From the NCBI GenBank assembly GCA_000002445.1, contig AE017150.2:800001-864000 (forward strand): a stretch of DNA of 64,000 nt. Direction: 5' to 3'. Numbering within the stretch: the first letter of the stretch is position 1; each line of letters opens with the position of its first letter. Both the position numbers and the translations under genes were made by a program. The notes beneath the pieces are model-generated. The model did no database searches. It was not told the origin of the DNA and was given only the letters and a program-made list of their open reading frames with translations. Positions 7,908-64,000 of this stretch are shown here, one piece after another. This DNA comes from Trypanosoma brucei (taxonomy: Eukaryota).

Positions 7908-8635
7908 CGCTAGTGAAAGCGCCTTTCTCCCTTTTTTAGTACTTAGTTATCTGTGTCAATCCCAATTGTTAACAACTTTAGTCCCCAGTTGTGTATATTC
8001 CTCCGCTAACGAAGCTGGAAGATATGGCAAGATCCTTGAAGGAACAGGAAAGAAGAAACTTGAAGTTCTTTCGTTTTCTGCTGTAGGGTGTGAGCGGCGG
8101 GGGGGTCTGCCTTCCTTTTTTTTTCCTTGTTTTACTTTACTTTCTCTAAACCAAATGAATAGAGTGAGTACGGCATTTGCAAAACCAATAGAAGAGAAAA
8201 AATAAAGGGAAAGAAAAGAAAAAAGAAGCAATAATCGAAGCAAATTAAAATAATTTTCATTAGTTGAGTGGGTACAGTTGTGAACGACGATTTCGGAGGA
8301 AATCAAAGATTAGAGATGTTGAATGGGGACTCCTCTCTTTTTTTCTTTTTGTTTCGCTCCTTTTTCCACCTCTCTCCGGGTAATCCTTATCGGGTCACCA
8401 CTATTAGTGTTCAGTTTGCACTTTAAAAAAAAATGTTCCCTCAGTTTCTTTTCTTAACTTTAACTCGGTTACTTCGTTCACCTTTCCCTTAAAGCAGTGC
8501 TAATACATCACACAACTGCACACTCCCTTAAAAGGTTTAAACGTACGGGACAAAAAGCGTTTGTTCAACTCAGAGGTTGGTACATTATATCATACCCCTC
8601 CAACTATTAACAAAACGAGCCACTACACAACGACA

Positions 8636-11353
8636 TCACTTACGCCTCTTCGCACGTTGTTTGTCGCGCCGCAACTCGCCCATCTTCTTGCGATCGAGTG
8701 GACCGTTTTTACGTCGACCTCCATTACCCTTTACCGCCTGCGATCGCATGAGCTTTCGTACGCTGAGGTTATTGGCCTTTTCACGCGTACGCGGATCCAC
8801 CTTTCCGCGCTCAATAAGACCACGAAGCATTCGCTGCGCACGGCGCCGCTTACGTTGAACGGCCTCCATCACCTTTTTACCCGGACGCGCGTTCATTTCG
8901 CGGAAGCGAGCACGCTGTGCCTCAACCTCCTCCGCCGTGACAGGTAGTACAACGCGGCAGTTGCGCTGCTCATCTTTCAAAAACCAATCTGGAAGATCTT
9001 CATCATCGTTGAAGGTGTAGCGGTTGATAGATGCATCAAGAATTTCACGACGGCCACGCGGGTCAAGCATCTTTGTGGCGATAGCAAGAGTGCGGGCACG
9101 TACCTCCGGGTCTGTAAGAGCGACGGGAACCTCCTCAAACTCGGTGTCTTTGCTGTTGCCACTGTTGCCCCTCTGACGGCGCTTCTCAGCATTCTCCTTT
9201 AGTGTCTGTTTTCGCTGCTGCCGTACGAGCTCTTGCGTGGTTAGCTTGCCAATGTCTGGTACAATGGCACGCTTGCGACGTGAATCTACACGACCAACAT
9301 TCACCTCAAGATCGCTCCGGTCGTCACTAAAGCGACCATCAGAGAGGTCAGAAACACTGTTCATGTCATCATCGTCATCATCCACACGGGCATCAAAGCG
9401 CATCTTCTTTCTGGTGGATGTGCTACTACCGGCGGTATCATCCCGAAGGGGGCCTGGCGCGCTCATTTCCACTCGGTCCTCCTCAAGACGTTTACTTTTC
9501 TTGCGTCTGTTGCCACTATCACTTCGTGGCATGGGAAATGTATCCCGGAGAACCTTCTCGATGTTGACGTGGTGACGCAACCACTTACTCTGCTTACCTG
9601 CAGCATCAAGAGTAGTTTGGTGCCTTTCCCTCTTGTGACGTGTGGCATCATCTTCACCTTCGTCTTCCCCTTCACTTTCATCTTCCTCAGCACCAGGCTT
9701 GCTAAGGCCCTCTTCGTACAATGCAACGCGGGCCGAACGTTTAGCGGGGATGTAGTTGCCGTAGTTGTCAACATCCACACCATCTTCCTCACCCTCAACA
9801 AGCTGTATGGAGCGGACGAGTCGGCCACTGCCGTCATACTGCTCATCGTCGCCACCTTCCTTCTCATCGCTTCCCACGTCCCAGTCCTTCTCCAAGTTAA
9901 GATTGGCGTTCATAACAGGATTGAGTGGATCATTAAGTCGCTCATCCGGCTCTTCCCAGTGCTTGTCGAGTATGTTAGCAACGTCTGCCTCATCGACGGC
10001 AGCCAGCTTTCCAACAGTGAATCCCTCATCGTCTTCGCCATCCTCGCTAGAGTCTTCTTCACCAACATCACTTCCCTCAACTCCATCTGCATCGTGCGTA
10101 AAACCATCCGCATCTGTCATGTGCTCTGCGCTGGTATTTGGATCATAGTTGATGAGACCTTTGATCTGTTTGAGTTTTCTGTCAACAATCTTTTTCTGCT
10201 TCTTCTTCATTTCCTTGGACTGCTTCTTGCGTAACTCAAGAAGCTCCCTCGCTATCTTTGCAACGCCCTCCGCACTGTCAAAATCAAATTTATCGTCGTC
10301 CTTCTCTTCTTCTTCGTCTTCCTCCGCGATGTCCCCGGCGTTCGCATCACTCGCGGCGCGTTGCTTAAGTTCCCGGGCCTGCTCCCGCAGCAGTTGTTCA
10401 CGCCAGCGTACAAGTCGTCGCAAATCCGCATCCCCAACCTGCTGTAAGTCCCCACAGAGGTACACCAACTCCTTTTTGGAGTGTTTAGACTTTAAAAAGG
10501 CCTTCTCCTCCGGGGTGGTAAAACGCAGCTCGTGGTGGGAACGAAGGAATGCCTTTGGATCACTGCTACTCATAAACTCTGAAAAGGACGCCACGTGTTG
10601 TTGCACCGTAGCAAACTCCTCGTACCCTGCAGGCACATTAGACCTGGGCACCACAAGAGCCCCGGATGGGGTGAGTATTTTTTCCTCCTCCACATCAGAA
10701 AATACCTTCTGCGGATTAAACATCGCAGGGTCCAATTGCTTGGGGGCCTTGTAACCCGCACAAGTCACGAAAATCTCAGCAGACTCCATACGTGAGGCCA
10801 GTGGCTTTGTGGCCTCCACCTTATCAAACAACTGTTTCATCACCCACATGAGCTTATGGAAATCTTGTGACCGAAACACCTTTGTGACGAACCAACCACC
10901 TGGCCGTAACAGTTTGCTAGCCAACTTCGCGGCGTGTAGAACAAGCGAGTTCTGTTCAAACAGATCTCGCGACCACACACCACCAACATTGGGGGCACCA
11001 TCGTGAATAACGCAGTCCACTGGCTCACGTTTGAGATAAGTCATTATAATTTTCTTCGTTTTTTCCTCAGTAATATCGCCCACAAATGTCTTCACGCCTC
11101 GAATGGGTGCAATGGGTACTAAATCCACACCGACTATCTTTGAACCAACGGGCATATGTTTTGCTGCTACTTGGCACCAGCTACCCGGAGCCGCGCAGAG
11201 ATCAACGAGTACGCGACATTTTGAAAGGAAATCATACTTGCGGTTCAGTTGCACAAGTTTGAAGGCGGAACGCGCACGGAAACCCTGATCCTTGGCGAGG
11301 CGGTAATACGCGTCAAGGCGGGTCTTAGCCTTCTTTTTAGATTTGGTACCCAT
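8636..11353 (-). CDS. SPB1: AdoMet-dependent rRNA 2'-O-methyltransferase SPB1/FTSJ3
   Basis: The N-terminal FtsJ domain reads GFRARSAFKLVQLNRKYDFL...VDLCAAPGSWCQVA...HDGAPNVGG...FVTKVFRS. It is followed by a long acidic/Lys-rich SPB1-type C-terminal region, and the 905 aa length is typical of SPB1. Confidence 0.85.
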   Translation of the reverse strand: MGTKSKKKAKTRLDAYYRLAKDQGFRARSAFKLVQLNRKYDFLSKCRVLVDLCAAPGSWCQVAAKHMPVGSKIVGVDLVPIAPIRGVKTFVGDITEEKTKKIIMTYLKREPVDCVIHDGAPNVGGVWSRDLFEQNSLVLHAAKLASKLLRPGGWFVTKVFRSQDFHKLMWVMKQLFDKVEATKPLASRMESAEIFVTCAGYKAPKQLDPAMFNPQKVFSDVEEEKILTPSGALVVPRSNVPAGYEEFATVQQHVASFSEFMSSSDPKAFLRSHHELRFTTPEEKAFLKSKHSKKELVYLCGDLQQVGDADLRRLVRWREQLLREQARELKQRAASDANAGDIAEEDEEEEKDDDKFDFDSAEGVAKIARELLELRKKQSKEMKKKQKKIVDRKLKQIKGLINYDPNTSAEHMTDADGFTHDADGVEGSDVGEEDSSEDGEDDEGFTVGKLAAVDEADVANILDKHWEEPDERLNDPLNPVMNANLNLEKDWDVGSDEKEGGDDEQYDGSGRLVRSIQLVEGEEDGVDVDNYGNYIPAKRSARVALYEEGLSKPGAEEDESEGEDEGEDDATRHKRERHQTTLDAAGKQSKWLRHHVNIEKVLRDTFPMPRSDSGNRRKKSKRLEEDRVEMSAPGPLRDDTAGSSTSTRKKMRFDARVDDDDDDMNSVSDLSDGRFSDDRSDLEVNVGRVDSRRKRAIVPDIGKLTTQELVRQQRKQTLKENAEKRRQRGNSGNSKDTEFEEVPVALTDPEVRARTLAIATKMLDPRGRREILDASINRYTFNDDEDLPDWFLKDEQRNCRVVLPVTAEEVEAQRARFREMNARPGKKVMEAVQRKRRRAQRMLRGLIERGKVDPRTREKANNLSVRKLMRSQAVKGNGGRRKNGPLDRKKMGELRRDKQRAKRRK

Positions 11354-16390: not shown

Positions 16391-18320
16391 ATCAAATAGG
16401 TTTTAAGCAGCAATAAAACGGTATAAGTATAATAAGTGTGACAAAACTAATCACAGCACACCCACAATAAAATCGAAAAGAAACTCAGGATTTGGAGGGA
16501 AATAATGAAATAAAAATGAAGGACAGAACAAAAAAAAAGGAGTGCAATAAAAATATCCAGACAGAATTTTTTTGTTCCTCTTTATATTTCTTCAAGTTAC
16601 TCCCTTCCTTCTTTGTTACCTTTTTCTCAAGAATGAGAAATAGGAATACTTTTTGCGTTTAGTTTCGTGTTATTATGGTTGGGTTCCCTGTTGTTGTTTT
16701 TGTTGTTTTCGTCCGTGATGTAGAACTTGATTATTATCTTCTTTTTTTTTCTTTTTACCTTGGCAAACGGTAAATAACAAAACGAAACAATCACCTAAAC
16801 AACTGCGAACAGAAAAGAAAAGAGGGCACAAATTAATGGAAATTAAGTAGAAAGCGCCACCTCCCTATTCACGTGCTGCTTCAATGTTCCGCGTCACGCC
16901 GTGGTTGATTTCTTCCTTTTTCTTTTGGTTTCTTTTCCGCTTGAGTATTATTTTTCTTTTTTGTGATAACAACAACACTCTTTCCTTTCCCTTCCCACTT
17001 TCTTGTCTTTTTTTTAAAATCTGTTTTTTTTGTGTGTGTGCTAGTTCGCTTCCTTTCTGTTCGTTATTTTGGTATACTTCTATTAAACAAAAGCAAAAAC
17101 AAAATAATTGGAAAGAAAGTGAGGAGGTGCGGATAAATGAGCGGATGTAAAAAATATTCAAGAAACGGATATATATATATATATTTATTTATTTATTCAT
17201 TCATTCATCAATATGCCACCAACTGACATAAACAGTTGGAAACGTGATAATACGAAATTTTATTTTAAAAAAACTTTTTTTCGTCTTCAAACAATAGAGA
17301 CGGATTCAAATTAAACACACACAGCAAAGGGGGGCGAGAGAAATAGAAGGTTGGGAAAAGATCACAAGAAAGAAATAAAAAAGGACACGAGGCGCGCCAC
17401 AACAAATTTCCTTCCATCTCTCCCAAACAACAAAAACAAAAAAGGTGGAAATTAAAGTGGAATAATAAAGTAAAACGGAATGGAGAAAACACATGAACGG
17501 AAAGCCTACGTGCGCACAGTACAGTTGTGCGAAAAAAACAACATAACAAACATATAAACCTATAAATAAAGATTTATTTCTGCTGTTATTGCTTTTATAT
17601 TTTTTCCTCCTTCTTTCTCCCATTCATCCCTTCCTTTTCCTCCTCCTCCTCCTAAGCCATAAACGCTATTTAACAAAAATGGAGAAAGAAGAACAAGCAA
17701 AAACACAAAAGAAAAAAAAAGTAATAAGAAAAGAGACAAACAACACAAACTTCATCACCAACAAGAGCAAATCACAAAAAGGAAAAAGAAAATCAATTGC
17801 CCTGTCTCTTGTAGTTTTGTCACTTGCCCTTCTCCCTGTATTTTATTCGAATATACTCATCCTTCCCTTCTTATATACATATACATATTTCTCATTCCTC
17901 CTGTCAGAAAAATCCGCAAATTTTAAGACAAAAAGTAGAGAAAAGTAACCGTAAAAACGTATATGTTGATTAATCAATCATTAACCTATATTTAAATACA
18001 GATATATGCTTCAAGACCTTTTCAAAGCCACCAAAGGTAAACAAAAGGTCATTATATAAAAAAAGAACGGAAGCGACACCAAGGGAGGAAAAGCACTCCA
18101 TGAATTATTTAAATAAATGTAAGTAGAGACAAAAAAGATCGTCAAGCTTCCTACCACAACTTTTTACAAAAAAGATACAACAATAGAGGATCCCCGACCA
18201 TTTCTATTTTATCTCCAGTGTGCAATTACCCCGCCCCTTTTCATTCCCTTGTAAATGTGACCAAGCCTAAAATACCCACAAGTGCATTTCCTTCCGTAAC
18301 CACTTATTGTCTCCCGTTGC

Positions 18321-19538
18321 TTAAGAAGTGGTACCAACAATGCGTGACCACTCATGTTCCACATCACCATATTGAATATCTGTAATCGCCTTTAGAACCC
18401 GATGTGTGAGCGAAGCCCCTGGAGCCGGGCATGGAACATTAAGCAACTCTCCCTTATATGACAGTGCTTCCACAGGGGACACAATAGCAGCCGTCCCACA
18501 GCCAAAGCACTCAAGCACACGTTTCTCCCGTAGCGCAGCAGTGAGCTCGTGAATGGTAAAGGAGCGTTCAGATACACGTGCCTCACCCCACTGCCGCACC
18601 AGCGACAAAATGGAATCTCGCGTCACACCGGGGAGGATCGTGCCATCCAACGGCGCAGTTACAAGTTCCACTTCATTTGAATTTGCAGAAGGACGCCAAA
18701 GACACATGAAATTCATTGCTCCCACTTCTTGCACTTCTTCTCCAGCGCCCAGCCATAACACTTGCTGAAAGCCAAGCTCAGACGCTTCCCGCTGCACCAG
18801 CATAGGCGCAGCGTAGTTCGCGCCAAGCTTCACGTTGCCGACCCCACCAGGCCAGGCACGGCGCCGCTCCTCCTCCACATGAAGTCTCACAGGTTTCATC
18901 CCAGAGGGATAATATGGTCCAACAGGTGAAGCAATCACGAATAACTTCGCTGCAGAACCTGCCACTGCGGAGAGTGTGCTTCCAGTCCCAATTACAGTGG
19001 GTCTCAAGTATAGAGAGTAACCACGCTCACTTGGGACGTAATCACGTTCCACTTTCACAAACTCCTCAATTAACTTTTGCAGTTCGTCAGGGTCAAATCC
19101 AGGGAGACATAAGCGTCGTGTGCTGTCCAGTAGCCGTCGACAGTTACGATCCGGGCGGAAGAGTCGGATATTGCCGTGACTGTCGCGATACGCCTTCATG
19201 CCCTCGAAGCATTGAATGGCATAATGTAAGCAAGCAGTCTGCGGCGGCAATGAAAGGTTCTCAAAGGGAACAATACGTGGTTTGCCCCATTTCCCATTCC
19301 CATCTGCATCAATTACCAACATATGTGGGCTGAAAAGAGTACCAAACATAACTCCCTGCAGTGAAGGAAGTGGCGGTGGATTTGCCACGCGTTGAACAGT
19401 GAGGTCCTTGGCGAGGAAAGTCATAATAAACTGTTGTATTTGCCTGTGGTTCCCAAATATCGAAGTTTCTTTTATCAATAAGTTGTTTATCACTGTCGTC
19501 TGTGTTAGGAATGATAATGATAATAGTAAAGTGAGCAA
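18321..19538 (-). CDS. BCAT: Branched-chain amino acid aminotransferase (class IV PLP aminotransferase), tandem copy 1
   Basis: The BCAT hallmarks are present: FGTLFSPHMLV, GKWGKPRIVPF, LHYAIQCFEGMKAYR, IRLFRPDRNCRRL, SLYLRPTVIGT, SPVGPYY. The first 38 codons upstream of an internal Met (MTFLAK) may be a targeting peptide or a 5' over-extension. Confidence 0.85.
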   Translation of the reverse strand: MLTLLLSLSFLTQTTVINNLLIKETSIFGNHRQIQQFIMTFLAKDLTVQRVANPPPLPSLQGVMFGTLFSPHMLVIDADGNGKWGKPRIVPFENLSLPPQTACLHYAIQCFEGMKAYRDSHGNIRLFRPDRNCRRLLDSTRRLCLPGFDPDELQKLIEEFVKVERDYVPSERGYSLYLRPTVIGTGSTLSAVAGSAAKLFVIASPVGPYYPSGMKPVRLHVEEERRRAWPGGVGNVKLGANYAAPMLVQREASELGFQQVLWLGAGEEVQEVGAMNFMCLWRPSANSNEVELVTAPLDGTILPGVTRDSILSLVRQWGEARVSERSFTIHELTAALREKRVLECFGCGTAAIVSPVEALSYKGELLNVPCPAPGASLTHRVLKAITDIQYGDVEHEWSRIVGTTS

Positions 19539-20159
19539 AATAATGAAAGGTTATCATACAACGGTGCACACAAAACAACATGGGTGACGAACCACTGCAT
19601 AAAAACAAAACGACTTAACAAGGTAGTACTAACAAAATAAAAGAAGGACGCCACTAGCAAAAACGTACGCACAGATACTATACACTGCAGTACGGGCAGT
19701 AATTTTGTTAACGATATATCAGGCAATGTGTAACTGTATAATTTTACATGTGGAGTGTAGAGGTGGTAACGGTCGTACTTGCTTCGTTTCAGCATTTAAC
19801 AATGAAATACAATAAAACCAAGCAGCACAACCGGACTTTGCTGAACGGGAACACAAACATATTATACGAGAAAGTACGCACCACATATACTAGCAGGATA
19901 GCTTGTATGGTATCCAAATGAGTTTGCGATATGGCAAAAATTAAAAATAAAATCCGTATCAGAAACAAAAAAATAGATCAACTTAATGGTTGTGAGTAAC
20001 ATGAATTGCCATTCACAGAAACGTTTTTCAAGTCACTTCAATCCAGAATCTAGTTCGTTTTCTTTTACTTCACAATGTTTCATTCCCTTGTAAATGTGAC
20101 GAAGCCTAAAATACCCACAAGCGCATTTCCTTCCGTAACCACTTATTGTCTCCCGTTGC

Positions 20160-21377
20160 TTAAGAAGTGGTACCAACAATGCGTGACCACTCATGTTCCA
20201 CATCACCATATTGAATATCTGTAATCGCCTTTAGAACCCGATGTGTGAGCGAAGCCCCTGGAGCCGGGCATGGAACATTAAGCAACTCTCCCTTATATGA
20301 CAGTGCTTCCACAGGGGACACAATAGCAGCCGTCCCACAGCCAAAGCACTCAAGCACACGTTTCTCCCGTAGCGCAGCAGTGAGCTCGTGAATGGTAAAG
20401 GAGCGTTCAGATACACGTGCCTCACCCCACTGCCGCACCAGCGACAAAATGGAATCTCGCGTCACACCGGGGAGGATCGTGCCATCCAACGGCGCAGTTA
20501 CAAGTTCCACTTCATTTGAATTTGCAGAAGGACGCCAAAGACACATGAAATTCATTGCTCCCACTTCTTGCACTTCTTCTCCAGCGCCCAGCCATAACAC
20601 TTGCTGAAAGCCAAGCTCAGACGCTTCCTGCTGCACCAGCATAGGCGCAGCGTAGTTCGCGCCAAGCTTCACGTTGCCGACCCCACCAGGCCAGGCACGG
20701 CGCCGCTCCTCCTCCACATGAAGTCTCACAGGTTTCATCCCAGAGGGATAATATGGTCCAACAGGTGAAGCAATCACGAATAACTTCGCTGCAGAACCTG
20801 CCACTGCGGAGAGTTTGCTTCCAGTCCCAATTACAGTGGGTCTCAAGTATAGAGAGTAACCACGCTCACTTGGGACGTAATCACGTTCCACTTTCACAAA
20901 CTCCTCAATTAACTTTTGCAGTTCGTCAGGGTCAAATCCAGGGAGACATAAGCGTCGTGTGCTGTCCAGTAGCCGTCGACAGTTACGATCCGGGCGGAAG
21001 AGTCGGATATTGCCGTGACTGTCGCGATACGCCTTCATGCCCTCGAAGCATTGAATGGCATAATGTAAGCAAGCAGTCTGCGGCGGCAATGAAAGGTTCT
21101 CAAAGGGAACAATACGTGGTTTGCCCCATTTCCCATTCCCATCTGCATCAATTACCAACATATGTGGGCTGAAAAGAGTACCAAACATAACTCCCTGCAG
21201 TGAAGGAAGTGGCGGTGGATTTGCCACGCGTTGAACAAAAATTTTTTTGGCGAGGAAAGTCATAATAAACTGTTGTATTTGCCTGTGGTTCCCAAATATC
21301 GAAGTTTCTTTTATCAATAAGTTGTTTATCACTGTCGTCTGTGTTAGGAATGATAATGATAATAGTAAAGTGAGCAA
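20160..21377 (-). CDS. BCAT: Branched-chain amino acid aminotransferase, tandem copy 2
   Basis: This 405-aa ORF is near-identical to copy 1 (period 1839 bp) and differs at only a few residues (KKIFV vs KDLTV; GSKLSAV vs GSTLSAV; VQQE vs VQRE). Confidence 0.85.
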   Translation of the reverse strand: MLTLLLSLSFLTQTTVINNLLIKETSIFGNHRQIQQFIMTFLAKKIFVQRVANPPPLPSLQGVMFGTLFSPHMLVIDADGNGKWGKPRIVPFENLSLPPQTACLHYAIQCFEGMKAYRDSHGNIRLFRPDRNCRRLLDSTRRLCLPGFDPDELQKLIEEFVKVERDYVPSERGYSLYLRPTVIGTGSKLSAVAGSAAKLFVIASPVGPYYPSGMKPVRLHVEEERRRAWPGGVGNVKLGANYAAPMLVQQEASELGFQQVLWLGAGEEVQEVGAMNFMCLWRPSANSNEVELVTAPLDGTILPGVTRDSILSLVRQWGEARVSERSFTIHELTAALREKRVLECFGCGTAAIVSPVEALSYKGELLNVPCPAPGASLTHRVLKAITDIQYGDVEHEWSRIVGTTS

Positions 21378-22035
21378 AATAATGAAAGGTTATCATACAA
21401 CGGTGCACACAAAACAACATGGGTGACGAACCACTGCATAAAAACAAAACGACTTAACAAGGTAGTACTAACAAAATAAAAGAAGGACGCCACTAGCAAA
21501 AACGTGCGCACAGATACTATACACTGCAGTGCAACGAACAACAAGTAATTCTTTTCATAGAGAATGGTGGTGAACTCAAACGTGGGACGAAATAGGATAG
21601 TGGTATATAATGTTAGACCAAATCAGCAAGAAGAAAAACACTCTTCTCTCTCCAGTACCATTTACAACGGCACCTTTATCGTATATATATATATGCTTGT
21701 TTTTTTGTTTTTAATGATTCAACTCCTGCTATATTTTTTACTTATCCTTTAGTTTCGGTCTCCATTTACCGCATTCCACTGCAATAATATGTAATTCCCA
21801 CCCTTGGGCATCTAGAAAAAAATGTTTGCCATTTACTTTTTTATTCGCCCCCTTAAGCTCTTCATCAGGCGAAACACTCGATCAAATGGGGCACGATTTC
21901 CTCTGCTATCCCTCTCGTGAAGCCGCTGCTTTTCCGAACAGTGGTGGTATGCTTAATAAATTGTATGTAACGGGTGTGATGATATTGCAACGGTCACAGT
22001 GACACATGCATGTAACAAATCTTTTAACATATTAA

Positions 22036-40413: not shown

Positions 40414-40507
40414 TTACAGATAAGACTACGTGAAAAGGAAAAGAAAAAAAATAGAAATTTAAAAACTGCACTCACTCACAGAGAATATACATTACACGTC
40501 ACAAGCA

Positions 40508-40880
40508 TTCAAATACAGCACAAAAATAAGGTTGACAACGAGCTTCCGGTGCACACACCAACCCGTAAACGAATAACAAAGCACATCAAAAACACAAAAC
40601 TACCAAGACAATCGATAAGGTAACTGTATGCCACGCCAACCAGTTGCAGCGCAATGCTCATACTGGCAAACGTGGCACACGCTGCGCCAAGGCTCACAGT
40701 ATCAACAGTGATGTAATCGACAGAGCGTTACCAAATACATCACCACGACAGGACATAGCACACTACGGAACCTGCAACATTACGATATAGCTGCAAAACA
40801 AAACAACAGGAAAAACAATTACTGTATATCCACAACACCGGTCACAGCTGCGCCCCATCACGCGTCCAGTACACCTCCCC
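40508..40880. repeat. Copy A of an exact ~370-bp direct repeat (copy B is at 63630-64000). It contains the last ~12 codons of the uL11 gene plus ~335 bp of its 3' flank
   Basis: Identical 62-aa ORFs appear at 40509..40697 and 63632..63820 in the track. Direct comparison shows base-for-base identity from ttcaaatacagcacaaaaataagg through ...cgcgtccagtacacctc. Confidence 0.9.
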
Positions 40881-41870
40881 ACTCATTGCAGCCTCGTCCA
40901 TCTGCTTCCGCTTCTCACCTTCAGGGAGTCGGTAATTCATAAAAACAATACGCATCTCCTCTGGCGTCATGTCCTTCACCCAACCTCGTGCATTCAAGTA
41001 ACGTCGAGCAAGTTCCCGCTCCCTCAAATCACGATGATAAGGGCTCAGTGGGTGGCTCGCTCTCCACAGGGTATCCAGTAAACAGGGGTCACGCAAACCC
41101 TCCTCAATCTGTTCATCCGTCAGTGGTGACATATTGGGCCGGTGCAACCGCTCAATCAGTGGTGCCTCTTCAAGTTCACGCTGCCTCAACGTAGTATATT
41201 GTTCCATGTGTATACGCCTGTACCTTTCGCATTCCTCCGTGTACTGCTGCTCAGTCATATCTTTCACGGGGGAACTGTAAGGTGTATCTACGCCAATGAA
41301 ACAAACACCCATCCGCCTGGCTTGCCCAACAACGCGTCGTACACGGGTCTCCAGTAACGGGTACTCTGGACGTCCCCAACACAACGGTTTCATTTTCGCT
41401 ATTTCGTATGCCATCTCCAATGTCATCAGAGCACAGTAGTGCCCTCGCAGCGGCACAGGTCCCGTCTCCCGCCGCTTCTTCCGAAGTGCACGCAGAATGA
41501 ACCACGCAGTAGGTGGCGGTTCAATTGTAAAAAGATACGATTTGTCAAAGTACACTTGGATGCGAACAATCAGCTCGACATCTTCCTTGAAGTGTGGCTT
41601 CGTCCGGTCATTGAACACCTTCGCAAAATCCATCGCCTTCAGCCCAAGTTTCGAAAACTCTTGTCCCACGGGAGGACCCGTCGCCGCCTTCCCAGCCTTA
41701 ATAAAGAAACGCCAGTTGTGCAATACACGCTTCCCAGGAAATTCAGGTCGCCCAAATATATCCCTCGCCTTCTCAACCACCAAAGCTTCAGGCAGTCGGT
41801 TTGAACCAGGTTCTACACACACCGTCTTGGGCCGTGCCCTTAGTTGAAGGACGCCACACGCGCGGAGCAT
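40842..41870 (-). CDS. Mitochondrial ribosomal protein uL11 with a long C-terminal extension
   Basis: The uL11 N-terminal domain motif AGKAATGPPVGQEFSKLGLKAMDFAKVFNDRTK...VELIVRIQVYFDKSYLFTIEPPP is present. The 342 aa length is far above the ~140-aa bacterial uL11, as is usual for kinetoplastid mitoribosomal proteins. Confidence 0.75.
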   Translation of the reverse strand: MLRACGVLQLRARPKTVCVEPGSNRLPEALVVEKARDIFGRPEFPGKRVLHNWRFFIKAGKAATGPPVGQEFSKLGLKAMDFAKVFNDRTKPHFKEDVELIVRIQVYFDKSYLFTIEPPPTAWFILRALRKKRRETGPVPLRGHYCALMTLEMAYEIAKMKPLCWGRPEYPLLETRVRRVVGQARRMGVCFIGVDTPYSSPVKDMTEQQYTEECERYRRIHMEQYTTLRQRELEEAPLIERLHRPNMSPLTDEQIEEGLRDPCLLDTLWRASHPLSPYHRDLRERELARRYLNARGWVKDMTPEEMRIVFMNYRLPEGEKRKQMDEAAMSGEVYWTRDGAQL

Positions 41871-42412
41871 CAGTCAACTGTCACTAAATGGCTTACACAC
41901 AATTACTAGTTGTAAGTCCTTATATACAGTTGCGTACCAGAAGAGAAGAGGGAAGAGATAGTAACAGCAAGCATCCAAAGAAATGGGCGAGACGGTATAC
42001 AGGAAACATGTGTATGCATGTAGGCAGTAAGTAGAGCCCGTGCAGCAAGCAAAGGAAATGGTGAAACAGCACAATTACCGTATAGTGAAGAGAAGCTTCA
42101 GAAACACAAATACAACAAAATGTAAAGGGAAGGGAAGGAATAATACTGAGACCACACACACACGCACACAGAAAGAGAGAGAGAGAGAGACGTACAGACA
42201 AACAAGGAGAAAAAACTCCTCACGATGATTCACATTCCAACACGCGGCATACGACAGTTCCTACCGCAACCGCGTCGCGCCATATTAACGCACACACTCA
42301 CTCCATAAATGAATCAAATGTTCAGCACCCGCATCGATCACATCCTAAGCAATGCATTACTCAGTGCATGGCCAAGGGGAGAGTGCACATCCCAACAAGC
42401 TATAATAGCATC

Positions 42413-43393
42413 CTACTCAATTATACCACACAGAAACGACAAGAATAACAGGATACAACAAACAGGAAACGGCACCTTGTACAGAAGGAACACACTCAAT
42501 AGTGAGTACATCTCCCTCCCAGAATCAGGTGCAATAACATTCGTCATTCTGCTTGCCTCGCCGACAGCTGCTTCATACCCATTACTGCACCGACCGCTAG
42601 GAACAGTACCTGAAGCACAGTTAACAGGAGAATAAACCAATGGAGAAGCCGAAGCAGCAGTCTGATCCCCAGCACCCTTTGGGGAGTGACGGCTCCTCAA
42701 CGCTGTCGAAGGTGGAGACACCTCTCCTCCAGCATTCCTTACAGCTGAACCTAACTGTGGCTGTGCTGCCGGAGCTTTCTCCACAGCCGCAGTCTCACAA
42801 CCTTCCACAAGTCCTTCCACCTTTCCATGACTTCGCTTCATCACAAGGCTATCCGGAACACCCAACTCCCCATAAATACAGCGAAGTGCACACCGAACAG
42901 CATTCCGCTCCCTCGCCTGCACACGTCCACGTTGCTTCCAAAATGCAGCAGCGACGTCCGGACCGCTAGGGCCCTTGCTACTACAGTCACCTCCAAAGAA
43001 ACCACTCACAGACTCATACGGTGCCATAACTTCCCTCGGCACCACACATATATCCACGAACACCTCATCCCTTGTGCCAGCGTCTGGCAACTCCACAGCT
43101 CCTTCCTCCACGCCACCACGCCTCGCTGCGAGACGACGGAGCCTACGGATGTCAAGCATAAACTTCACCCTCACACATTCACCAGCAAATATCAGTCCAA
43201 CAGATGGTTGAACACCATAGCGATTGCGTACAGCACTGAGAACTTTGAACGCCACAACATTCTCACAAGGGTCCTCAGTACGTACAAGTAGACTACTTAA
43301 CTCGATAATATTCTCAATACTGGCATCCGTCAGAGGAGAAGGAAAGTACAGGCACTCCTGTGAAAAACAAACAATGCCCCCACCACCCTTCAT
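42413..43393 (-). CDS. Hypothetical protein (326 aa)
   Basis: Complete co-oriented ORF. No confident motif recognised. Confidence 0.5.
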   Translation of the reverse strand: MKGGGGIVCFSQECLYFPSPLTDASIENIIELSSLLVRTEDPCENVVAFKVLSAVRNRYGVQPSVGLIFAGECVRVKFMLDIRRLRRLAARRGGVEEGAVELPDAGTRDEVFVDICVVPREVMAPYESVSGFFGGDCSSKGPSGPDVAAAFWKQRGRVQARERNAVRCALRCIYGELGVPDSLVMKRSHGKVEGLVEGCETAAVEKAPAAQPQLGSAVRNAGGEVSPPSTALRSRHSPKGAGDQTAASASPLVYSPVNCASGTVPSGRCSNGYEAAVGEASRMTNVIAPDSGREMYSLLSVFLLYKVPFPVCCILLFLSFLCGIIE

Positions 43394-43893
43394 CGTGGAT
43401 GAAAGATACGAAACACTAATTACTCACCCGTAAGAAAGGACAGATACGAAATAGAGAAGAAAAACATAAACACATTCCCGGGAAGTAATGACAGTCACAG
43501 ATACAACAAGTATGAAAAAGAAGATATTACACCAATAATAAAATAGCAAAACACCAACCTCTAATACGGTCGAATAAATATAAACATATAACATGTCCGC
43601 TACGCAACAATTAAGCGAAACAAAAAACAATGAAAGGATAGAAAAAATACAGCGCAAACTTCGTTGGGTTGTCAAACAATTCAAAAACACAGATTATGTG
43701 GTTGCCCACAGCGCCAACAAATCATATAACCATGCCAAATAACGAGCTGAAAGCACTCCCCACTACGGTGTCATCCTCATGGTCATACCAATAAAGTAAA
43801 ATACAGAGCAAAAAAATGATCATACATACCATTCGAACGTATCATAGTACAATGAAAGAGTGACAAACATTTATGCAGCCACGCAACTCAACA

Positions 43894-44082
43894 TTACAAC
43901 ATATATATACAAACAGTATTAGGCATGGAGAAATACTCCTTCACATTAACAATCACGCGTCCATCATCACCATCAGCAGCAGTCACATGCAGCGAACACA
44001 CGGCAGTTAGCAATAATAAAATACCGCACAGGAGAGCAGCACGCGTAAAACCAAAATTCACCATACGGGTGTCCATGCTCAT
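43894..44082 (-). pseudogene. Truncated duplicate of the 5' end of the surface glycoprotein gene at 44902..45999. It keeps the signal peptide plus ~17 further residues and then diverges to a stop
   Basis: The first 53 aa (MSMDTRMVNFGFTRAALLCGILLLLTAVCSLHVTAADGDDGRVIVNVKEYFSM) are identical to the full gene. Nucleotide identity extends ~230 bp into the 5' flank (43900-44310 vs 45820-46230). Downstream the reading frame decays into AT-rich non-coding sequence. Confidence 0.55.
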
Positions 44083-44901
44083 TGTCAGTGTTGCTTCCTT
44101 ATGACTTTATCAAATACACACATATGCGGGAAAGAGGGAAGAGCGTGTGAGTAAAGGGGAAATGCAACAGTGACAATAGAAAAAGGAGTTACACAAGATA
44201 TCAAATAATCACACATACACTCGAGGATAATAAACAAGAAATATGAAAAGGATAACACAAATAATAATGGAAGAGAGCAGCCATATCACATATCCCAACA
44301 AATTGGTTAGTGAGACACAGGTACTCAAAACATTTATTATCATAATGGGCCAAGTATAACTCAGGGATTGAACACTATGGAACTCTCATTTAATACAACC
44401 TCATATAGATTGTTAAAATAATTAAGTGCTGCAAGTTACACGTATAGCAATACATCACACGTAACAGGGAGGACCTACAAGCCTCCCACATATACATGGA
44501 AGTAAAACATGAAATAACGCGAACTAAACATGACACCCACACACGAAATAAATAATCAACACCAACAACAACGAAACAATGGGACATCAAACAGTAAAGA
44601 TGGTTCAATGGGTCACACACTAAAAGAGCAATGATGTGGTCGGAGGGAAGTGATGCCACACATCGGAAGTCCCTCGCAGAGCCAACATGGTACAAGGAGA
44701 TCGTTAATATTAGGAACATAAAAGTAATAATTACATAAGAGAGTATTGAGCACTACTGAAAGTAATAATAGGAAGTGAAACAATACACGAAGCTAGAAAT
44801 TTTGACGGTCCGTAACGTAGGATGAAAGCGGCACAGTATTCATTACTCCACTTGATCCTAAACATCACTCAACCACCACCCATGTGATACACGATGTGAC
44901 G

Positions 44902-45999
44902 CTAATACGATTGACCGGTCATCATTTGGTTATAATATTGCAGGGCTAAGGGAGGAGCAGCAAAACCCTCTGGGGGAACAAAAGGTGTTGGCTCCAGGAC
45001 AAACAACGGCTCTCCAACAACTTCACGCAGCGTCATGGGAATGATCTCCTTTTTAACATTATAATCACAGAACCAACGTAAAAGGAAAAGCAGCAACACA
45101 ATGAGGGAAACAACAGAAATTAGAGCTATAAGAATAATGAGCAAATCAATCCTCTCTTCCAATGACACAGTTGTCACAGTAACTTCTTCATCCTTTGTCA
45201 CAGTTGGTTCCGGTACTTCGCCAGAGGCAGGTGCAGTTGTAGTTGTAGTGGTAGTTGTTGTGGTTGTCGTCGTGCTGATAGAATCATGGACCTCGCAAAC
45301 AACAACGTAGTCTTGAGACTTTGTTTCAAAGTTCTGACTTGTCCAACGAATAGTCCCAGAAGCCTCCCTGCCATCATACCAGGTAGTCACATCATCATCT
45401 TCATGGTACCATGAAAGGGTATACAACTGACCATGCTTGGGATATTCACTACCCCAAAAGGATGGGTAACCATTCATTGGAGCCGCAAAAGCGTATTTGA
45501 CATATGAACCACGCCAGAACGCCACCCCGTGACCATCAGGCAAAGCCTTTGCAAACAATCCCTTATTCCAACGATACACACAATGACGTGAAGATGCCGC
45601 GTCTCCAGGCTTACAACGCTTATCAGCCACAATGGCCCCGCCACTACTGTACACAGCATCTCCACCAAGGTAGCTGAAAGCATCCGAACCCGTTAACACA
45701 TCTTTCATTGCATCCTGCAAACTTTGGTGTGCCGCCTCCGTTTGATCGGCAGGAAGCACAGCGCCATTGTCGCGGCAATATGCTTCAGCATTGTTGTAAC
45801 TAACAAAGTACTTCCCATGACGACTAAATGCAAAATTGTCCATAGAGAAATACTCCTTCACATTAACAATCACGCGTCCATCATCACCATCAGCAGCAGT
45901 CACATGCAGCGAACACACGGCAGTTAGCAATAATAAAATACCGCACAGGAGAGCAGCACGCGTAAAACCAAAATTCACCATACGGGTGTCCATGCTCAT
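44902..45999 (-). CDS. Type-I membrane glycoprotein. It has a signal peptide, an ectodomain with a possible C-type-lectin-like fold, a poly-Thr (T13) stalk, one TM helix and a short cytoplasmic tail
   Basis: The N-terminal hydrophobic signal is AALLCGILLLLTAV and the cysteine spacing is consistent with a CTLD (YCRDNGAVLP...; ...YVVVCEV). TTTTTTTTTTTTT is encoded at ~45225-45280, and a TM segment LLIILIALISVVSLIVLLLFLL precedes the tail RWFCDYNVKKE. The CTLD assignment is tentative. Confidence 0.6.
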   Translation of the reverse strand: MSMDTRMVNFGFTRAALLCGILLLLTAVCSLHVTAADGDDGRVIVNVKEYFSMDNFAFSRHGKYFVSYNNAEAYCRDNGAVLPADQTEAAHQSLQDAMKDVLTGSDAFSYLGGDAVYSSGGAIVADKRCKPGDAASSRHCVYRWNKGLFAKALPDGHGVAFWRGSYVKYAFAAPMNGYPSFWGSEYPKHGQLYTLSWYHEDDDVTTWYDGREASGTIRWTSQNFETKSQDYVVVCEVHDSISTTTTTTTTTTTTTAPASGEVPEPTVTKDEEVTVTTVSLEERIDLLIILIALISVVSLIVLLLFLLRWFCDYNVKKEIIPMTLREVVGEPLFVLEPTPFVPPEGFAAPPLALQYYNQMMTGQSY

Positions 46000-47103
46000 T
46001 GTCAGTGTTGTTTCCTTATGACTTTATCAAATACACACATATGCGGGAAAGAGGGAAGAGCGTGTGAGTAAAGGGGAAATGCAACAGTGACAATAGAAAA
46101 AGGAGTTACACAAGATATCAAATAATCACACATACACTCGAGGATAATAAACAAGAAATATGAAAAGGATAACACAAATAATAATGGAAGAGAGCAGCCA
46201 TATCACATATCCCAACAAATTGGTTAGTGAGGCACAGGTACACGTCGTATTTGATACAATAGTGGAGAAACTAAAGCAGAAAGAATATACATTATTCAAC
46301 TCTTGTTTGGTACAACCCTACTGTGCGAGGTCACCCGGAGCATTCGAGAGTGATGAAAACCAAATCCTCGCCTATTCATTATCCACGTTAGTTGAGGGGC
46401 GGAAGTGCTGCGTACATCAACGCGCGGTAAGAAGCGAGTGAAAACCGACTTACATTTGTCGCGACCTTCTTCAGGTGACGTCCGTAGGTGTGCCTGATCA
46501 GGATACGGCCATCTAGTATGAGAAGTAACCGGCGACGCCGATCTATCCGAACAAATACTACAACAAACAGCATAGACACGGAAGCGGAGTGGGAAAGCAT
46601 CACCAGCTCAGTTGTACTCAGTGTGCCAATAGGGTGGTTTTTTTTCTGCTATAAAAAAAGAACTTGAAGCATAAAGAAACGATGGTCCGCCTCCAGCTGC
46701 GTACCGGCGCACAGCGGAACCCCCATTGAATTTAAAACATCGTGCAGGTGGAGGTGCGGCAAGTTTACTCCCTCCCTTCCCTTCATTGTCTTCTTGGGTA
46801 CCTCGCGCATGTCCCAACAAACCACACAATCTCCAACCCGAGGACAACCGATAACGGGCATACGCTTTGTCTCCCCGCAAAGTCTCCAAGCGCGCACGTA
46901 TTCACATCACTATCGCAGCCTGTCATATTGCATACAAGTCGCTGTGGCCTTGCGAAAAAAAGCTCCCAGCTAGCGTAAACTAAACTCTCTCCAAGCACCA
47001 GGAGACAGAGTTGCAAATGCACACCACCACTCAGTCCCAACCTCGCTTCTTCGATCTGTTCATCTGTCAACACCAGCTCTCCCAAGTCCGTTCATCCATT
47101 GTG

Positions 47104-49926: not shown

Positions 49927-51133
49927 TAAGATCCTCTCTGAGTGCGTGTGGTTAAATTGCTTCTACCCGAAGTCAAGCTTTACAGGCCGCGTCGTATAAA
50001 CAAGAGACAAACTACAGCGTTTGGTCCCCGTCTCTATACACACGGCACTCTAAGAATATATATATATATATAATCTTAACCTCTTTTGGTTTGCCTCTTC
50101 TCTACTACAAAACAGAAAATATAGAAAGTGGTATTGCTCCCTTCTTCTTTTTTTTTTCGGAGAAGGGGTTTGAATATTAAATTCCTGTGTCTTCGACCTG
50201 CGGTAAGACAGGCGTTATGGGTGGCTAATGTAGCTGCCGCCTTCCCGATCACGTACCACCATAAAGAGATATAAGCACGTATGATACGTAAGTGCACAGG
50301 GAAGGGCGAAAGGGGGAAAAACAGAACGAAGTATATTAAGAGGAAGGGAGAGTTGAAGAGAAAGAGAAAAGAGGTATCTGCGCAAAGGATAGAACATGTT
50401 GTTGAAAGCCGAAAACAGTTCATGGAAATGCGTGAGACAATCAGCACACTAATTGGAGGGAAAGTAAAAAGGTGTTGCACAGGTATTGCTAATGACGTAT
50501 CGCTACGAACTCCTTTACGACCACTTTTTGCCCAACTGCTGCCCATCATACCGCTCGGCCATTGACTGCCAGTTTTGCTTCGCACCGTCTTGATTAACGA
50601 GCATTGCGAGAGCAGCGGAAAAACAACAAAATACGAGTCCGTAGCGACGCATCCCTGACTGGTAGGTTGTCCAAGAGGCCATTTGAATGGAGAATACGCA
50701 ACAGTGGGTGAGGAACCGGAGCCGATGTCAAAAGAGAAAGCAGCAGTAGAAGTCCGCAGCCAAACCGTTTCAATAATTTAGCGCAGCGACAGCCGAACTG
50801 TATGCTTGTACGTGGACGCGAGTCAAGGTACTTTTGTGTTTAAAACTACTGCAAAGAGCTTTTGTCGTTCCGTAACGGGGAGCAGAAACAAATCGTTTAG
50901 GAGGAAATGACACAACGGGAGAAGAACAAAAAAAAACAAAGGAGGGGGGAAAGCGAAGCGAGTGCAGGAACTGGAAGAGCGATTCGTAGCAGCGGATACA
51001 CACGCACAAGTACCAACTCCCAGCTGAAATGGTAACGGAGGGGGAGGGGTTTGAAAATAACAAAGAGAAAGGTTTTGCCAACAGTAATGGGGACGGTACT
51101 CAGTGAGTCACTATAAGGCGCGAGGCCACTCCC

Positions 51134-63562: not shown

Positions 63563-63629
63563 ACTTAAACTGATAAAAAAACAGCCTTAACTACAAAAGG
63601 GATATGCCTAAAAAAAACCTAAATAAAAG

Positions 63630-64000
63630 ATTCAAATACAGCACAAAAATAAGGTTGACAACGAGCTTCCGGTGCACACACCAACCCGTAAACGAATAAC
63701 AAAGCACATCAAAAACACAAAACTACCAAGACAATCGATAAGGTAACTGTATGCCACGCCAACCAGTTGCAGCGCAATGCTCATACTGGCAAACGTGGCA
63801 CACGCTGCGCCAAGGCTCACAGTATCAACAGTGATGTAATCGACAGAGCGTTACCAAATACATCACCACGACAGGACATAGCACACTACGGAACCTGCAA
63901 CATTACGATATAGCTGCAAAACAAAACAACAGGAAAAACAATTACTGTATATCCACAACACCGGTCACAGCTGCGCCCCATCACGCGTCCAGTACACCTC
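63630..64000. repeat. Copy B of the ~370-bp direct repeat, running to the window edge. It ends inside a sequence identical to the uL11 C-terminal codons (VYWTRDGAQL*)
   Basis: Same evidence as copy A. The repeat may continue beyond coordinate 64000. Confidence 0.9.

What the first reader, a model, noticed from the sequence alone, without database searches (positions are those of the whole stretch)
43894..44310. Signal-peptide-only relic: truncated duplicate of the surface glycoprotein gene's 5' end with an intact upstream region
About 410 bp (43900-44310) duplicate the start of the 365-aa membrane glycoprotein gene (45820-46230). The copy spans ~230 bp of 5' flank and the first 53 codons (the signal peptide and the start of the ectodomain), then diverges into AT-rich sequence with a stop after 62 codons. 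Because the copied flank presumably includes the trans-splice acceptor, the fragment could still be processed into an mRNA encoding a short secreted or cleaved peptide, or act as a decoy processing site. It also marks a past partial tandem duplication (or a deletion within an older tandem array) of a surface-protein gene, a gene class prone to array expansion in trypanosomes.
Basis: seen in the sequence. Interest (0 to 1): 0.5.

Follow-up and report, generated by a model that had tools for sequence, protein, structure and literature searches.

The report
Leftover end-piece of IGP40 gene array
A 401-base copy of the start of a Trypanosoma brucei ER glycoprotein gene (IGP40) sits just downstream of that gene; it is the truncated last unit of a tandem gene array, it still carries working-looking RNA-processing signals, and its sister copy is known to yield a rare short transcript, so it is a real but ordinary genomic leftover.

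Summary
Window 43924-44324 repeats 45841-46241 (401 bp, 3 mismatches, both on the minus strand). It holds 242 bp of 5' flank plus the first 53 codons of the 365-aa gene, and then runs to a stop at codon 62.

The window is T. brucei chromosome 2, 800001-864000. The gene is an IGP40 "invariant glycoprotein" (Tb927.2.4760), a family reported as ER-localised, not surface.

The 1917-bp spacing equals the unit of the main IGP40 tandem array, so the fragment is the truncated terminal unit of an array. It is present at the same site in T. b. equiperdum and T. b. gambiense, and in the paralogous copy of a 5.9-kb segmental duplication. T. vivax has an analogous partial unit with a different breakpoint.

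By homology with mapped array genes, the fragment holds the poly(A) site of the upstream IGP40 mRNA, the polypyrimidine tract and the AG acceptor. The paralogous fragment gives a published 575-nt trans-spliced transcript (Tb2.NT.47, 0.59 RNA/cell) whose ORF starts at nt 23, as predicted. No peptide was detected and pN is about equal to pS.

Verdict: a real, transcribable array-end relic with no evidence of a protein function. Interest is low.

The parts
45841..46241 (-). R1: the upstream repeat copy. It holds 242 bp of 5' flank (polyY 46079-46045, AG 46023-46022, 22-nt 5'UTR) plus the first 53 codons of the intact IGP40 gene.
44902..45999 (-). Intact IGP40 gene (Tb927.2.4760), 365 aa: signal peptide, IGP C-type-lectin domain (residues 64-236), Thr-rich stretch and transmembrane segment.
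   Evidence: Pfam PF16825, E = 5.5e-84. The IGP40 qRT-PCR primers of PMC4497807 are present in the sequence. The gene ID comes from the coordinate offset and Table S2 of PMC4497807.
44325..44901 (-). Non-repeated part of the IGP40 3'UTR, from the stop codon to the start of the fragment.
   Evidence: The array gene Tb927.2.5320 has a mapped 3'UTR of 681 nt, which is longer than this 577-nt stretch.
43924..44324 (-). R2: the finding itself, the truncated terminal unit of the IGP40 tandem repeat (401 bp; 407 bp when measured against main-array-type units).
44232..44239 (-). Predicted poly(A) addition zone of the upstream IGP40 mRNA, at positions 86-93 inside the fragment. This is an inference.
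   Evidence: Transferred from the array genes: Tb927.2.5320 poly(A) site 950216 and Tb927.2.5330 splice site 950351, 135 nt apart. The zone is invariant in 15 repeat copies.
44128..44162 (-). Polypyrimidine tract TTTCCCCTTTACTCACACGCTCTTCCCTCTTTCCC.
   Evidence: invariant in all 15 copies compared
44105..44106 (-). AG trans-splice acceptor. The exon would start at 44104, giving a 22-nt 5'UTR.
   Evidence: It matches the ORF offset [23-208] of Tb2.NT.47 and the 22-nt 5'UTR of Tb927.2.5340. It is AC in the T. b. equiperdum relic.
43894..44082 (-). 62-codon ORF: 53 IGP40 codons (signal peptide plus about 20 residues) followed by 9 unrelated codons and a stop.
   Evidence: No Pfam hit. SignalP 'yes' is reported for the paralogous ORF.
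43530..44104 (-). Predicted fragment transcript (about 575 nt), transferred from the paralogous Tb2.NT.47. Not shown for this copy.
   Evidence: No Rfam match and no unusual fold.
43423..43464 (-). Own polypyrimidine tract (43464-43432) and AG (43424-43423) of the downstream MSP-domain gene Tb927.2.4750 (CDS 42413-43393).
   Evidence: The mapped splice site 843420-843422 equals window 43420-43422.
46242..46321 (-). About 80 nt upstream of R1 with 57% in-register identity to the end of the unit's 3'UTR. Probably a decayed remnant of a former upstream unit.
   Evidence: 33/60 in register against an off-register mean of 17.5, sd 3.4
40503..46404 (-). 5.9-kb segmental duplication unit (IGP40, fragment, MSP-domain gene, mitochondrial L11-like gene). 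Its other copy starts at 63627 and runs off the window.

Best explanation
The fragment is the truncated last unit of a head-to-tail IGP40 gene array on T. brucei chromosome 2. An older array next to the MSP-domain gene contracted to one intact unit plus the first 401-407 bp of the next one. That layout was then copied as part of a 5.9-kb segmental duplication.

The fragment stays about 99% identical to other IGP40 units because gene conversion keeps homogenising it.

Functionally it is the normal inter-unit RNA-processing module of the array. Its first ~90 nt are the end of the upstream IGP40 3'UTR, with the poly(A) site. Its polypyrimidine tract directs that polyadenylation and, coupled to it, spliced-leader addition at the AG 22 nt before the retained ATG.

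The by-product is a rare, short, capped and polyadenylated RNA carrying a 62-codon ORF. That ORF is most likely not a functional gene.

Shown: the repeat, its period, its conservation, and the signals in the sequence. Shown for homologous copies only: the splice site, the poly(A) site and the transcript. Inferred: use of these sites at this particular copy, and the absence of a peptide function.
For: - Repeat: 401 bp at 99.25% identity with a period of 1917 bp.
- Main array: the T. b. equiperdum IGP40 array (L002) has repeat copies at 4014, 5923, 7849, 9759, 11674 and 13580, spaced 1906-1926 bp, and ends with a 68-bp partial unit at 15502. TREU927 array splice sites are 1933 bp apart.
- Origin: the fragment follows main-array-type units 6 nt further than its own neighbour (CCTAAT, 'SMPN'), so it is not a fresh copy of that neighbour.
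- Conservation: the same fragment and junction occur in equiperdum L001, in gambiense L003 (the paralogous segment) and in L004. The paralogous 5.9-kb segments are collinear at 97.85%.
- T. vivax: the array is 2.44 units of 1886 bp. Its last unit stops after codon 149, directly upstream of the MSP-domain gene.
- Concerted evolution: a strain-specific substitution (Ser30) is shared by both window copies and by Tb2.NT.47_1 but by none of the equiperdum or gambiense copies. Variant patterns are mosaic.
- Processing signals: polyY 44162-44128 and AG 44106-44105. Kolev et al. list a 22-nt 5'UTR for Tb927.2.5340, and a Tb927.2.5320 poly(A) site 135 nt before the next unit's splice site.
- Transcript: Tb2.NT.47 lies at chr2 867227-866652, is 575 nt long, and its ORF starts at nt 23. 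Its 5' end corresponds to window 44104 + 23124 within 1 nt.
- Coupling of trans-splicing to upstream polyadenylation is stated in PMC2936537.
- Against a coding role: no MS peptides in three datasets, pN about equal to pS, and no Pfam domain.
Against: - No novel transcript was listed at this window's own fragment. Nothing is listed between 817 and 850 kb in Kolev Table S7. Short reads cannot separate the near-identical copies, so processing at this copy is inferred.
- The main array's last unit ends at repeat position 68, before the poly(A) zone. The last gene of an array can therefore use other downstream signals, and retention of the fragment need not be selected.
- The equiperdum relic has AG changed to AC at the acceptor, which suggests weak constraint.
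- Ribosome footprints are reported on Tb2.NT.47: 18.5 (bloodstream form) and 3.05 (procyclic form), covering 25-33% of the transcript. Translation is therefore not excluded.
- The deletion that removed the rest of the unit left no detectable trace, so the exact history cannot be reconstructed.
Confidence: 0.85

Rival explanations
1. The 62-codon ORF is a genuine small gene. The transcript is translated, the signal peptide takes the product into the ER, and a peptide of about 25 residues (or the signal peptide itself) has a function.
For: - A trans-spliced, polyadenylated transcript exists for the paralogous copy.
- The ORF is the first in the RNA, 22 nt from the 5' end, and is 62 codons long in all four relic copies seen.
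- SignalP is positive and one TM segment is predicted.
- Ribosome footprints are reported.
Against: - No peptides were found in three proteomic datasets.
- pN is about equal to pS, with 3-5 amino-acid changes among copies that differ by only ~2% in DNA.
- The 9-residue tail is simply read-through into unrelated sequence.
- Abundance is 0.59 RNA/cell.
- Footprints over the first 53 codons can come from cross-mapping of real IGP40 mRNAs.
- The equiperdum copy has lost the AG acceptor.
- The T. vivax counterpart breaks at codon 149, so the product is not conserved.
Confidence: 0.05
2. It is a recent, one-off partial duplication of the neighbouring gene's 5' end, or an assembly artefact from a collapsed array, with no older array history.
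For: - Identity to the neighbour is very high (3 mismatches).
- The T. b. gambiense assembly is visibly confused here: a 100-N gap inside a second repeat copy and a duplicated 3-kb stretch.
Against: - The fragment is present with the same junction in three independent assemblies and in both paralogous 5.9-kb segments.
- It matches main-array units better than its neighbour at diagnostic sites and for 6 nt beyond the neighbour's homology.
- Decayed homology continues about 80 nt upstream of the intact unit.
- A published transcript of the paralogous fragment crosses its junction.
Confidence: 0.04
3. The two direct repeats matter mainly as a recombination substrate. Crossing-over or single-strand annealing between them removes or re-amplifies the IGP40 gene, so the site acts as a copy-number switch.
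For: - The repeats are direct, 401 bp long, 99% identical and flank the whole gene.
- The IGP paper attributes copy-number plasticity to array expansion and contraction.
- One gambiense contig joins upstream flank, one chimeric repeat and the MSP-domain gene with no IGP40 body.
Against: - The gambiense contig is identical to its neighbour over the 3063 bp upstream, and all 7 differences lie in the repeat. An in-silico collapse would give the same pattern.
- All other assemblies keep exactly one gene at each site.
- This is a consequence of any direct repeat, not a demonstrated function.
Confidence: 0.06

Closest known systems
Tb2.NT.47, a 'novel transcript' of T. brucei chromosome 2 (Kolev et al. 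2010, PMC2936537; Ericson et al. 2014, PMC3942054)
   Same: It is the transcript of the paralogous fragment, 23.1 kb away. It has a 62-aa ORF differing at 2 residues, an identical second ORF in the post-fragment sequence, an ORF starting at nt 23 that fits the AG predicted here, and a length of 575 nt.
   Different: It lies outside the window (chr2 867227-866652). No transcript was listed for the window's own copy. The papers list it as a small-ORF candidate with hits in T. vivax and T. cruzi. The tables seen here do not label it as an IGP40 5' fragment.
IGP40 tandem array, Tb927.2.5290-5360 (Allison et al. 2014, PMC4497807)
   Same: It has the same repeat unit (about 1.9 kb), the same 5' flank, splice acceptor, 5'UTR and signal peptide. 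The fragment is 2-3 nt different from some array units of another subspecies.
   Different: Array units carry the full gene. The fragment stops after codon 53-55 and lies about 100 kb away at a solitary IGP40 site.
Terminal partial IGP unit in T. vivax (L005 4538-5365)
   Same: It occupies the same position (downstream end of an IGP array, directly upstream of the MSP-domain gene). It has the same make-up (5' flank plus the N-terminal coding part at 97.5% identity to full units, then read-through to a stop).
   Different: The break is after codon 149 (ORF 184 aa, including most of the lectin domain), and the array has two full units. The truncation events are probably independent.
Truncated gene copies at the ends of tandem arrays in general (my own knowledge, not tested here)
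   Same: A non-integer number of units, a sharp loss of homology at the array edge, and homogenisation of the retained part by gene conversion.
   Different: In trypanosomes the retained piece also carries the coupled polyadenylation and trans-splicing signals, so it can be processed into an RNA without needing a promoter.

Membership tests
IGP family (Pfam PF16825, IGP C-type lectin domain): parent gene | IGP lectin-like ectodomain | tested here: met
   The 365-aa ORF hits PF16825 at E = 5.5e-84, residues 64-236, covering the whole 173-position profile.
IGP family: parent gene, IGP40 subfamily | Sequence identity with the published IGP40 set, and gene ID | tested here: met
   Both IGP40 qRT-PCR primers occur in the gene. 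The N-terminus aligns with Tb927.2.5290. The coordinate offset makes the gene Tb927.2.4760, which is listed among the ten IGP40 genes.
IGP family: the 62-aa fragment product | IGP lectin-like ectodomain | tested here: not met
   The fragment ends at codon 53 of the parent, before the domain starts at residue 64. It has no Pfam hit. It is a gene fragment, not a family member.
Terminal partial unit of a tandem gene array | Spacing to the full copy equals the array's unit length, in head-to-tail orientation | tested here: met
   The period is 1917 bp in the window, 1906-1926 bp in the equiperdum array and 1933 bp between TREU927 array splice sites. All copies are direct repeats.
Terminal partial unit of a tandem gene array | Abrupt end of homology, with no remainder of the unit downstream | tested here: met
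   Identity drops to background after 43924. The 530 bp before the MSP-domain gene show no similarity to the rest of the unit above shuffled controls.
Processed (retro-copied) pseudogene | Copy limited to mature mRNA sequence, with a poly(A) remnant | tested here: not met
   The copy includes about 220 bp upstream of the splice acceptor, including the polypyrimidine tract, which is absent from mature mRNA. There is no A-run at the break.
Trypanosomatid trans-splicing / polyadenylation module | Polypyrimidine tract followed by an AG acceptor | tested here: met
   A 35-nt tract at 44162-44128 with the first AG 23 nt downstream, identical to the intact gene's and invariant in 15 copies.
Trypanosomatid trans-splicing / polyadenylation module | Experimentally mapped spliced-leader and poly(A) sites at this copy | not testable with these tools
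   Sites are mapped only at homologous copies: Tb2.NT.47, Tb927.2.5320, Tb927.2.5330 and Tb927.2.5340. None is listed for the window's copy.
Functional small-ORF (micropeptide) gene | Detected peptide | tested here: not met
   No mass-spectrometry peptides for Tb2.NT.47 in three datasets, according to the supplementary table of PMC3942054.
Functional small-ORF (micropeptide) gene | Purifying selection on the ORF | tested here: inconclusive
   pN is 0.021-0.035 against pS of 0-0.023 among four relic copies. There is no sign of constraint, but only 3-6 substitutions per pair.

The most novel reading that the evidence does not exclude
The fragment's RNA is translated. Its signal-peptide-bearing 62-residue product, or the act of targeting it to the ER, has a regulatory role for the IGP40 family. 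In that case the conserved 'array-end' architecture seen in both T. brucei and T. vivax is kept by selection rather than by accident. A weaker variant: array-end fragments are a general, unrecognised source of the 'novel transcripts' and 'small proteome' candidates catalogued in trypanosomes.
Probability: 0.06. Interest if true: 0.45.

Novelty: new member of a known kind. Interest (0 to 1): 0.2.

Why it matters
The value is mostly for annotation.

- It explains one catalogued 'conserved small ORF' transcript (Tb2.NT.47) as a 5' fragment of an IGP40 gene. The apparent conservation in other trypanosomes is then just similarity to IGP N-termini.
- It predicts an unannotated twin of that transcript at chr2 843.5-844.1 kb.
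- It shows concretely how, in an organism where mRNA ends are made by coupled trans-splicing and polyadenylation, a promoterless gene fragment left at the end of an array is automatically turned into an mRNA-like RNA.
- It also shows that this fragment contains the poly(A) site of the gene upstream.
- The IGP40 qRT-PCR forward primer used in the literature lies inside the repeat.
- Short-read expression or ribosome-profiling signal over the first 53 codons cannot be assigned to a particular copy.

None of this changes our understanding of trypanosome biology.

Tried and rejected
- Remains of the rest of the gene downstream of the fragment: none found. Sensitive BLAST and local alignment of 43394-43923 against the rest of the unit gave nothing above shuffled controls.
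- Structured or known non-coding RNA in the fragment transcript: no Rfam family in 43000-46600 apart from one chance-level hit on the other strand inside the MSP-domain gene. The fold z-score is +0.47.
- T. congolense synteny: the two contigs fetched (L006, L007) are short. Their called genes showed no MSP-domain, L11 or DSPc neighbour, so they were uninformative.
- Exact-sequence look-ups of the 365-aa and 62-aa proteins, and of the window's MSP-domain protein on contigs, found nothing. Loci had to be reached through homologues.
- The chromosome II sequence paper could not be retrieved.
- Reading the gambiense 'gene-less' contig as a real deletion allele: not accepted. The 3 kb upstream is identical to the neighbouring copy, and a software collapse of the two repeats would look the same.
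- First offset estimate of 800006, taken from the 'ATG pos.' column of Kolev Table S9: rejected in favour of 800000, which fits three independent mapped sites.

Full report
**Observation**

A self-comparison of the window finds three long repeats. One of them is 43924-44324 = 45841-46241: 401 bp, 3 mismatches, no gaps, spacing 1917 bp.

All genes in this part of the window are on the minus strand. Read on that strand, the upstream copy holds 242 bp of 5' flank plus the first 159 bp (53 codons) of a 365-aa ORF, 44902-45999(-). The downstream copy holds the same 242 bp plus 53 codons. It then diverges abruptly and reaches a stop after 62 codons, ORF 43894-44082(-).

Its coordinates are 14-24 bp off at their ends.

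**Identity of the locus**

The neighbouring 326-aa MSP-domain protein is identical to T. brucei TREU927 XP_951658.1.

Published processing sites fix the window as Tb927_02_v4:800001-864000:
- Tb2.NT.46 has its 5' end at 850869 with an ORF at [188-352]. That places its ATG at window 50682.
- The Tb927.2.4740 splice site at 841917 gives the listed ~47-nt 5'UTR.
- The Tb927.2.4750 splice site at 843420-843422 falls on the AG I had predicted at 43424-43423.

The 365-aa protein matches Pfam PF16825 ("IGP family C-type lectin domain") at E = 5.5e-84. It contains both IGP40 qRT-PCR primers of Allison et al. 2014. By position it is Tb927.2.4760, one of the ten IGP40 genes listed in that paper.

That paper reports IGP40 as an ER-localised type I glycoprotein encoded largely in tandem arrays (PMC4497807). 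The label "surface glycoprotein" is therefore not supported.

**What the fragment is**

The main IGP40 array, fetched from T. b. equiperdum (L002), has copies of the 401-bp element at 4014, 5923, 7849, 9759, 11674 and 13580. The unit is about 1.9 kb. The array ends with a 68-bp partial unit at 15502. In TREU927 the mapped splice sites of two consecutive array genes are 1933 bp apart.

The window's 1917-bp spacing is this same unit. The window therefore holds 1.21 units of the IGP40 tandem repeat: one intact unit and the beginning of the next.

The fragment is not a fresh copy of its neighbour:
- It follows main-array-type units for six more bases (CCTAAT, giving "SMPN" where the neighbour has "SMDN").
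- It shares other diagnostic bases with array units.

About 80 nt upstream of the intact unit still show 57% in-register identity to the end of the unit's 3'UTR. Over the first 60 nt this is 33/60, against an off-register mean of 17.5/60 with sd 3.4. This is best read as a decayed trace of a further unit upstream.

Downstream of the fragment, the 530 bp before the MSP-domain gene show no similarity to the rest of the unit. The remainder of the last unit was therefore deleted, not merely mutated.

**Age and conservation**

The same fragment, with the same junction and a 62-codon ORF, is present in:
- the orthologous site of T. b. equiperdum (L001 11675-12075);
- T. b. gambiense (L004 9069-9470);
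- the paralogous site in T. b. gambiense (L003 9070-9470).

The window's 46404-40503 segment (IGP40, fragment, MSP-domain gene, L11-like gene) is collinear with that paralogous segment at 97.85%. The window's last 374 bases (63627-64000) are the edge of the TREU927 paralogous copy. The truncation therefore predates this 5.9-kb segmental duplication.

In T. vivax the syntenic site carries an IGP array of 2.44 units (period 1886 bp). Its last unit keeps 367 bp of flank and 149 codons at 97.5% identity, then reads through to a stop at 184 aa, directly upstream of the MSP-domain gene. The architecture is the same but the breakpoint differs.

T. vivax and gene order also show which T. brucei copy sits in the ancestral position. 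It is the paralogous copy next to the DSPc phosphatase gene. The window's copy is the derived one.

**Concerted evolution**

The 15 copies of the element compared differ at 1-12 positions in a mosaic pattern. The codon for Ser30 is found in both window copies and in the TREU927 paralogous fragment (Tb2.NT.47_1). It is found in none of the equiperdum or gambiense copies, which all have Pro.

The sharp step from about 57% to 99% identity at the upstream edge is consistent with a gene-conversion tract boundary. This last point is inference.

**How it works**

The fragment contains a 35-nt polypyrimidine tract (44162-44128). The first AG downstream lies at 44106-44105, 22 nt before the ATG. This is identical to the intact gene's, and the tract is invariant in all 15 copies.

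Kolev et al. [quoted passage not shown] Their tables give:
- a 22-nt 5'UTR for the array gene Tb927.2.5340;
- a 681-nt 3'UTR for Tb927.2.5320, whose poly(A) site (950216) lies 135 nt before the next unit's splice site (950351).

Transferred to the window, the IGP40 mRNA of Tb927.2.4760 should be polyadenylated at about 44232-44239. That is 86-93 nt inside the fragment.

So the fragment's upstream part is the 3' end of the gene in front of it, not only a copied promoter-less flank. This step is inferred by homology. It has not been measured at this copy.

**Is the fragment itself processed?**

For the paralogous fragment, yes.
- Kolev Table S7 lists Tb2.NT.47 at chr2 867227-866652(-), 575 nt, 0.59 RNA/cell in procyclic cells.
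- Ericson et al. 2014 give its ORFs:
  - Tb2.NT.47_1 [23-208] = MSMDTRMVNFGFTRAALLCGLLYLLTAVCSLHVTAADGDDGRVIVNVKEYFSMPNTVCIYML, two residues different from the window's ORF;
  - Tb2.NT.47_2 [273-380], identical to window 43832-43722.
- The transcript's 5' end corresponds within 1 nt to the window's predicted exon start (44104 + 23124 = 67228).
- Its 3' end would map to about 43530, just upstream of the MSP-domain gene's own polypyrimidine tract.

No novel transcript is listed for the window's own copy. With near-identical copies and short reads, this absence is uninformative.

**Is it translated to something useful?**

- Ericson's table shows no mass-spectrometry peptide in three datasets, a positive SignalP call and one predicted TM segment.
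- Vasquez et al. 2014 list RNA at 34.5 (bloodstream form, BF) and 24.3 (procyclic form, PF), and ribosome footprints at 18.5 (BF) and 3.05 (PF). Footprints cover 25-33% of the transcript.
- The ORF is 32% of the transcript. However, its first 53 codons are almost identical to real IGP40 mRNAs, so cross-mapping cannot be excluded.
- Among four relic copies, pN (0.021-0.035) is not lower than pS (0-0.023).
- The equiperdum relic has AG changed to AC at the acceptor.
- The ORF has no Pfam domain.
- The predicted RNA matches no Rfam family and folds no better than shuffles.

I conclude that the RNA is a by-product of the processing signals and that a functional peptide is unlikely (about 5%).

**Comparison with what is known, and verdict**

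The closest known object is Tb2.NT.47 itself. It was catalogued as a small-ORF candidate "conserved" in T. vivax and T. cruzi. That conservation is explained by its being an IGP40 N-terminal fragment.

The kind of feature is well known: a truncated terminal unit of a tandem gene array, homogenised by gene conversion. The trypanosome-specific twist follows directly from established RNA-processing rules: the fragment becomes an mRNA-like RNA and hosts the poly(A) site of the upstream gene.

I classify it as a new member of a known kind. It is useful for annotation and of low general interest (0.2).

Noticed in passing
window 18239-19691 and 20078-21530: A second tandem duplication: 1453 bp at 99.2% identity, period 1839 bp. 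It holds two copies of a 405-aa ORF on the minus strand that matches Pfam Aminotran_4 (class IV aminotransferase, E = 5e-30). Like the IGP40 site, it has a non-integer number of units, about 1.8.
   Followed up: partly
window 40503-40877 and 63627-64000: A 375-bp repeat at 99.7% identity that runs off the end of the window. It is the downstream edge of a 5.9-kb segmental duplication (IGP40, fragment, MSP-domain gene, L11-like gene) whose second copy lies just beyond 64000.
   Followed up: yes
window 50515-50682 (-): A 55-aa ORF identical to Tb2.NT.46_1. This published unannotated small protein has mass-spectrometry peptides, a predicted signal peptide and TM segment, and homologues in T. cruzi and Leishmania. 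Its reported RNA level is 8.09 RNA/cell.
   Followed up: partly
L004 (T. b. gambiense DAL972, FN554965.1) 5538-9470: A 100-N gap sits inside a second copy of the repeat. After the gap come a re-started partial copy of the 940-aa gene, the upstream flank, one chimeric repeat and then the MSP-domain gene, with no IGP40 body. The 3063 bp upstream are identical to the first copy and all 7 differences lie in the repeat. This is either an assembly collapse or an allele that lost the gene by recombination between the repeats. The 41-aa stub before the gap is annotated as a 'fragment' (CBH09534.1).
   Followed up: partly
L001 11675-12075 (T. b. equiperdum relic): The AG splice acceptor of the fragment reads AC in this assembly. 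It is the only one of 15 copies to differ. The next AG is 5-6 nt downstream. This could be a real mutation or a sequencing error.
   Followed up: no
L002 4014-15569 (T. b. equiperdum main IGP40 array): Three of the six units have interrupted ORFs (262, 95 and 60 aa instead of about 360). Either several array members are pseudogenes in this strain or the assembly has indel errors.
   Followed up: no
window 44902-45999 (-): The exact 365-aa sequence is absent from the protein collection, although the neighbouring gene's product is present as a TREU927 entry. Homologues at this and the paralogous site are 351-365 aa long, mostly because the poly-threonine run varies in length.
   Followed up: no
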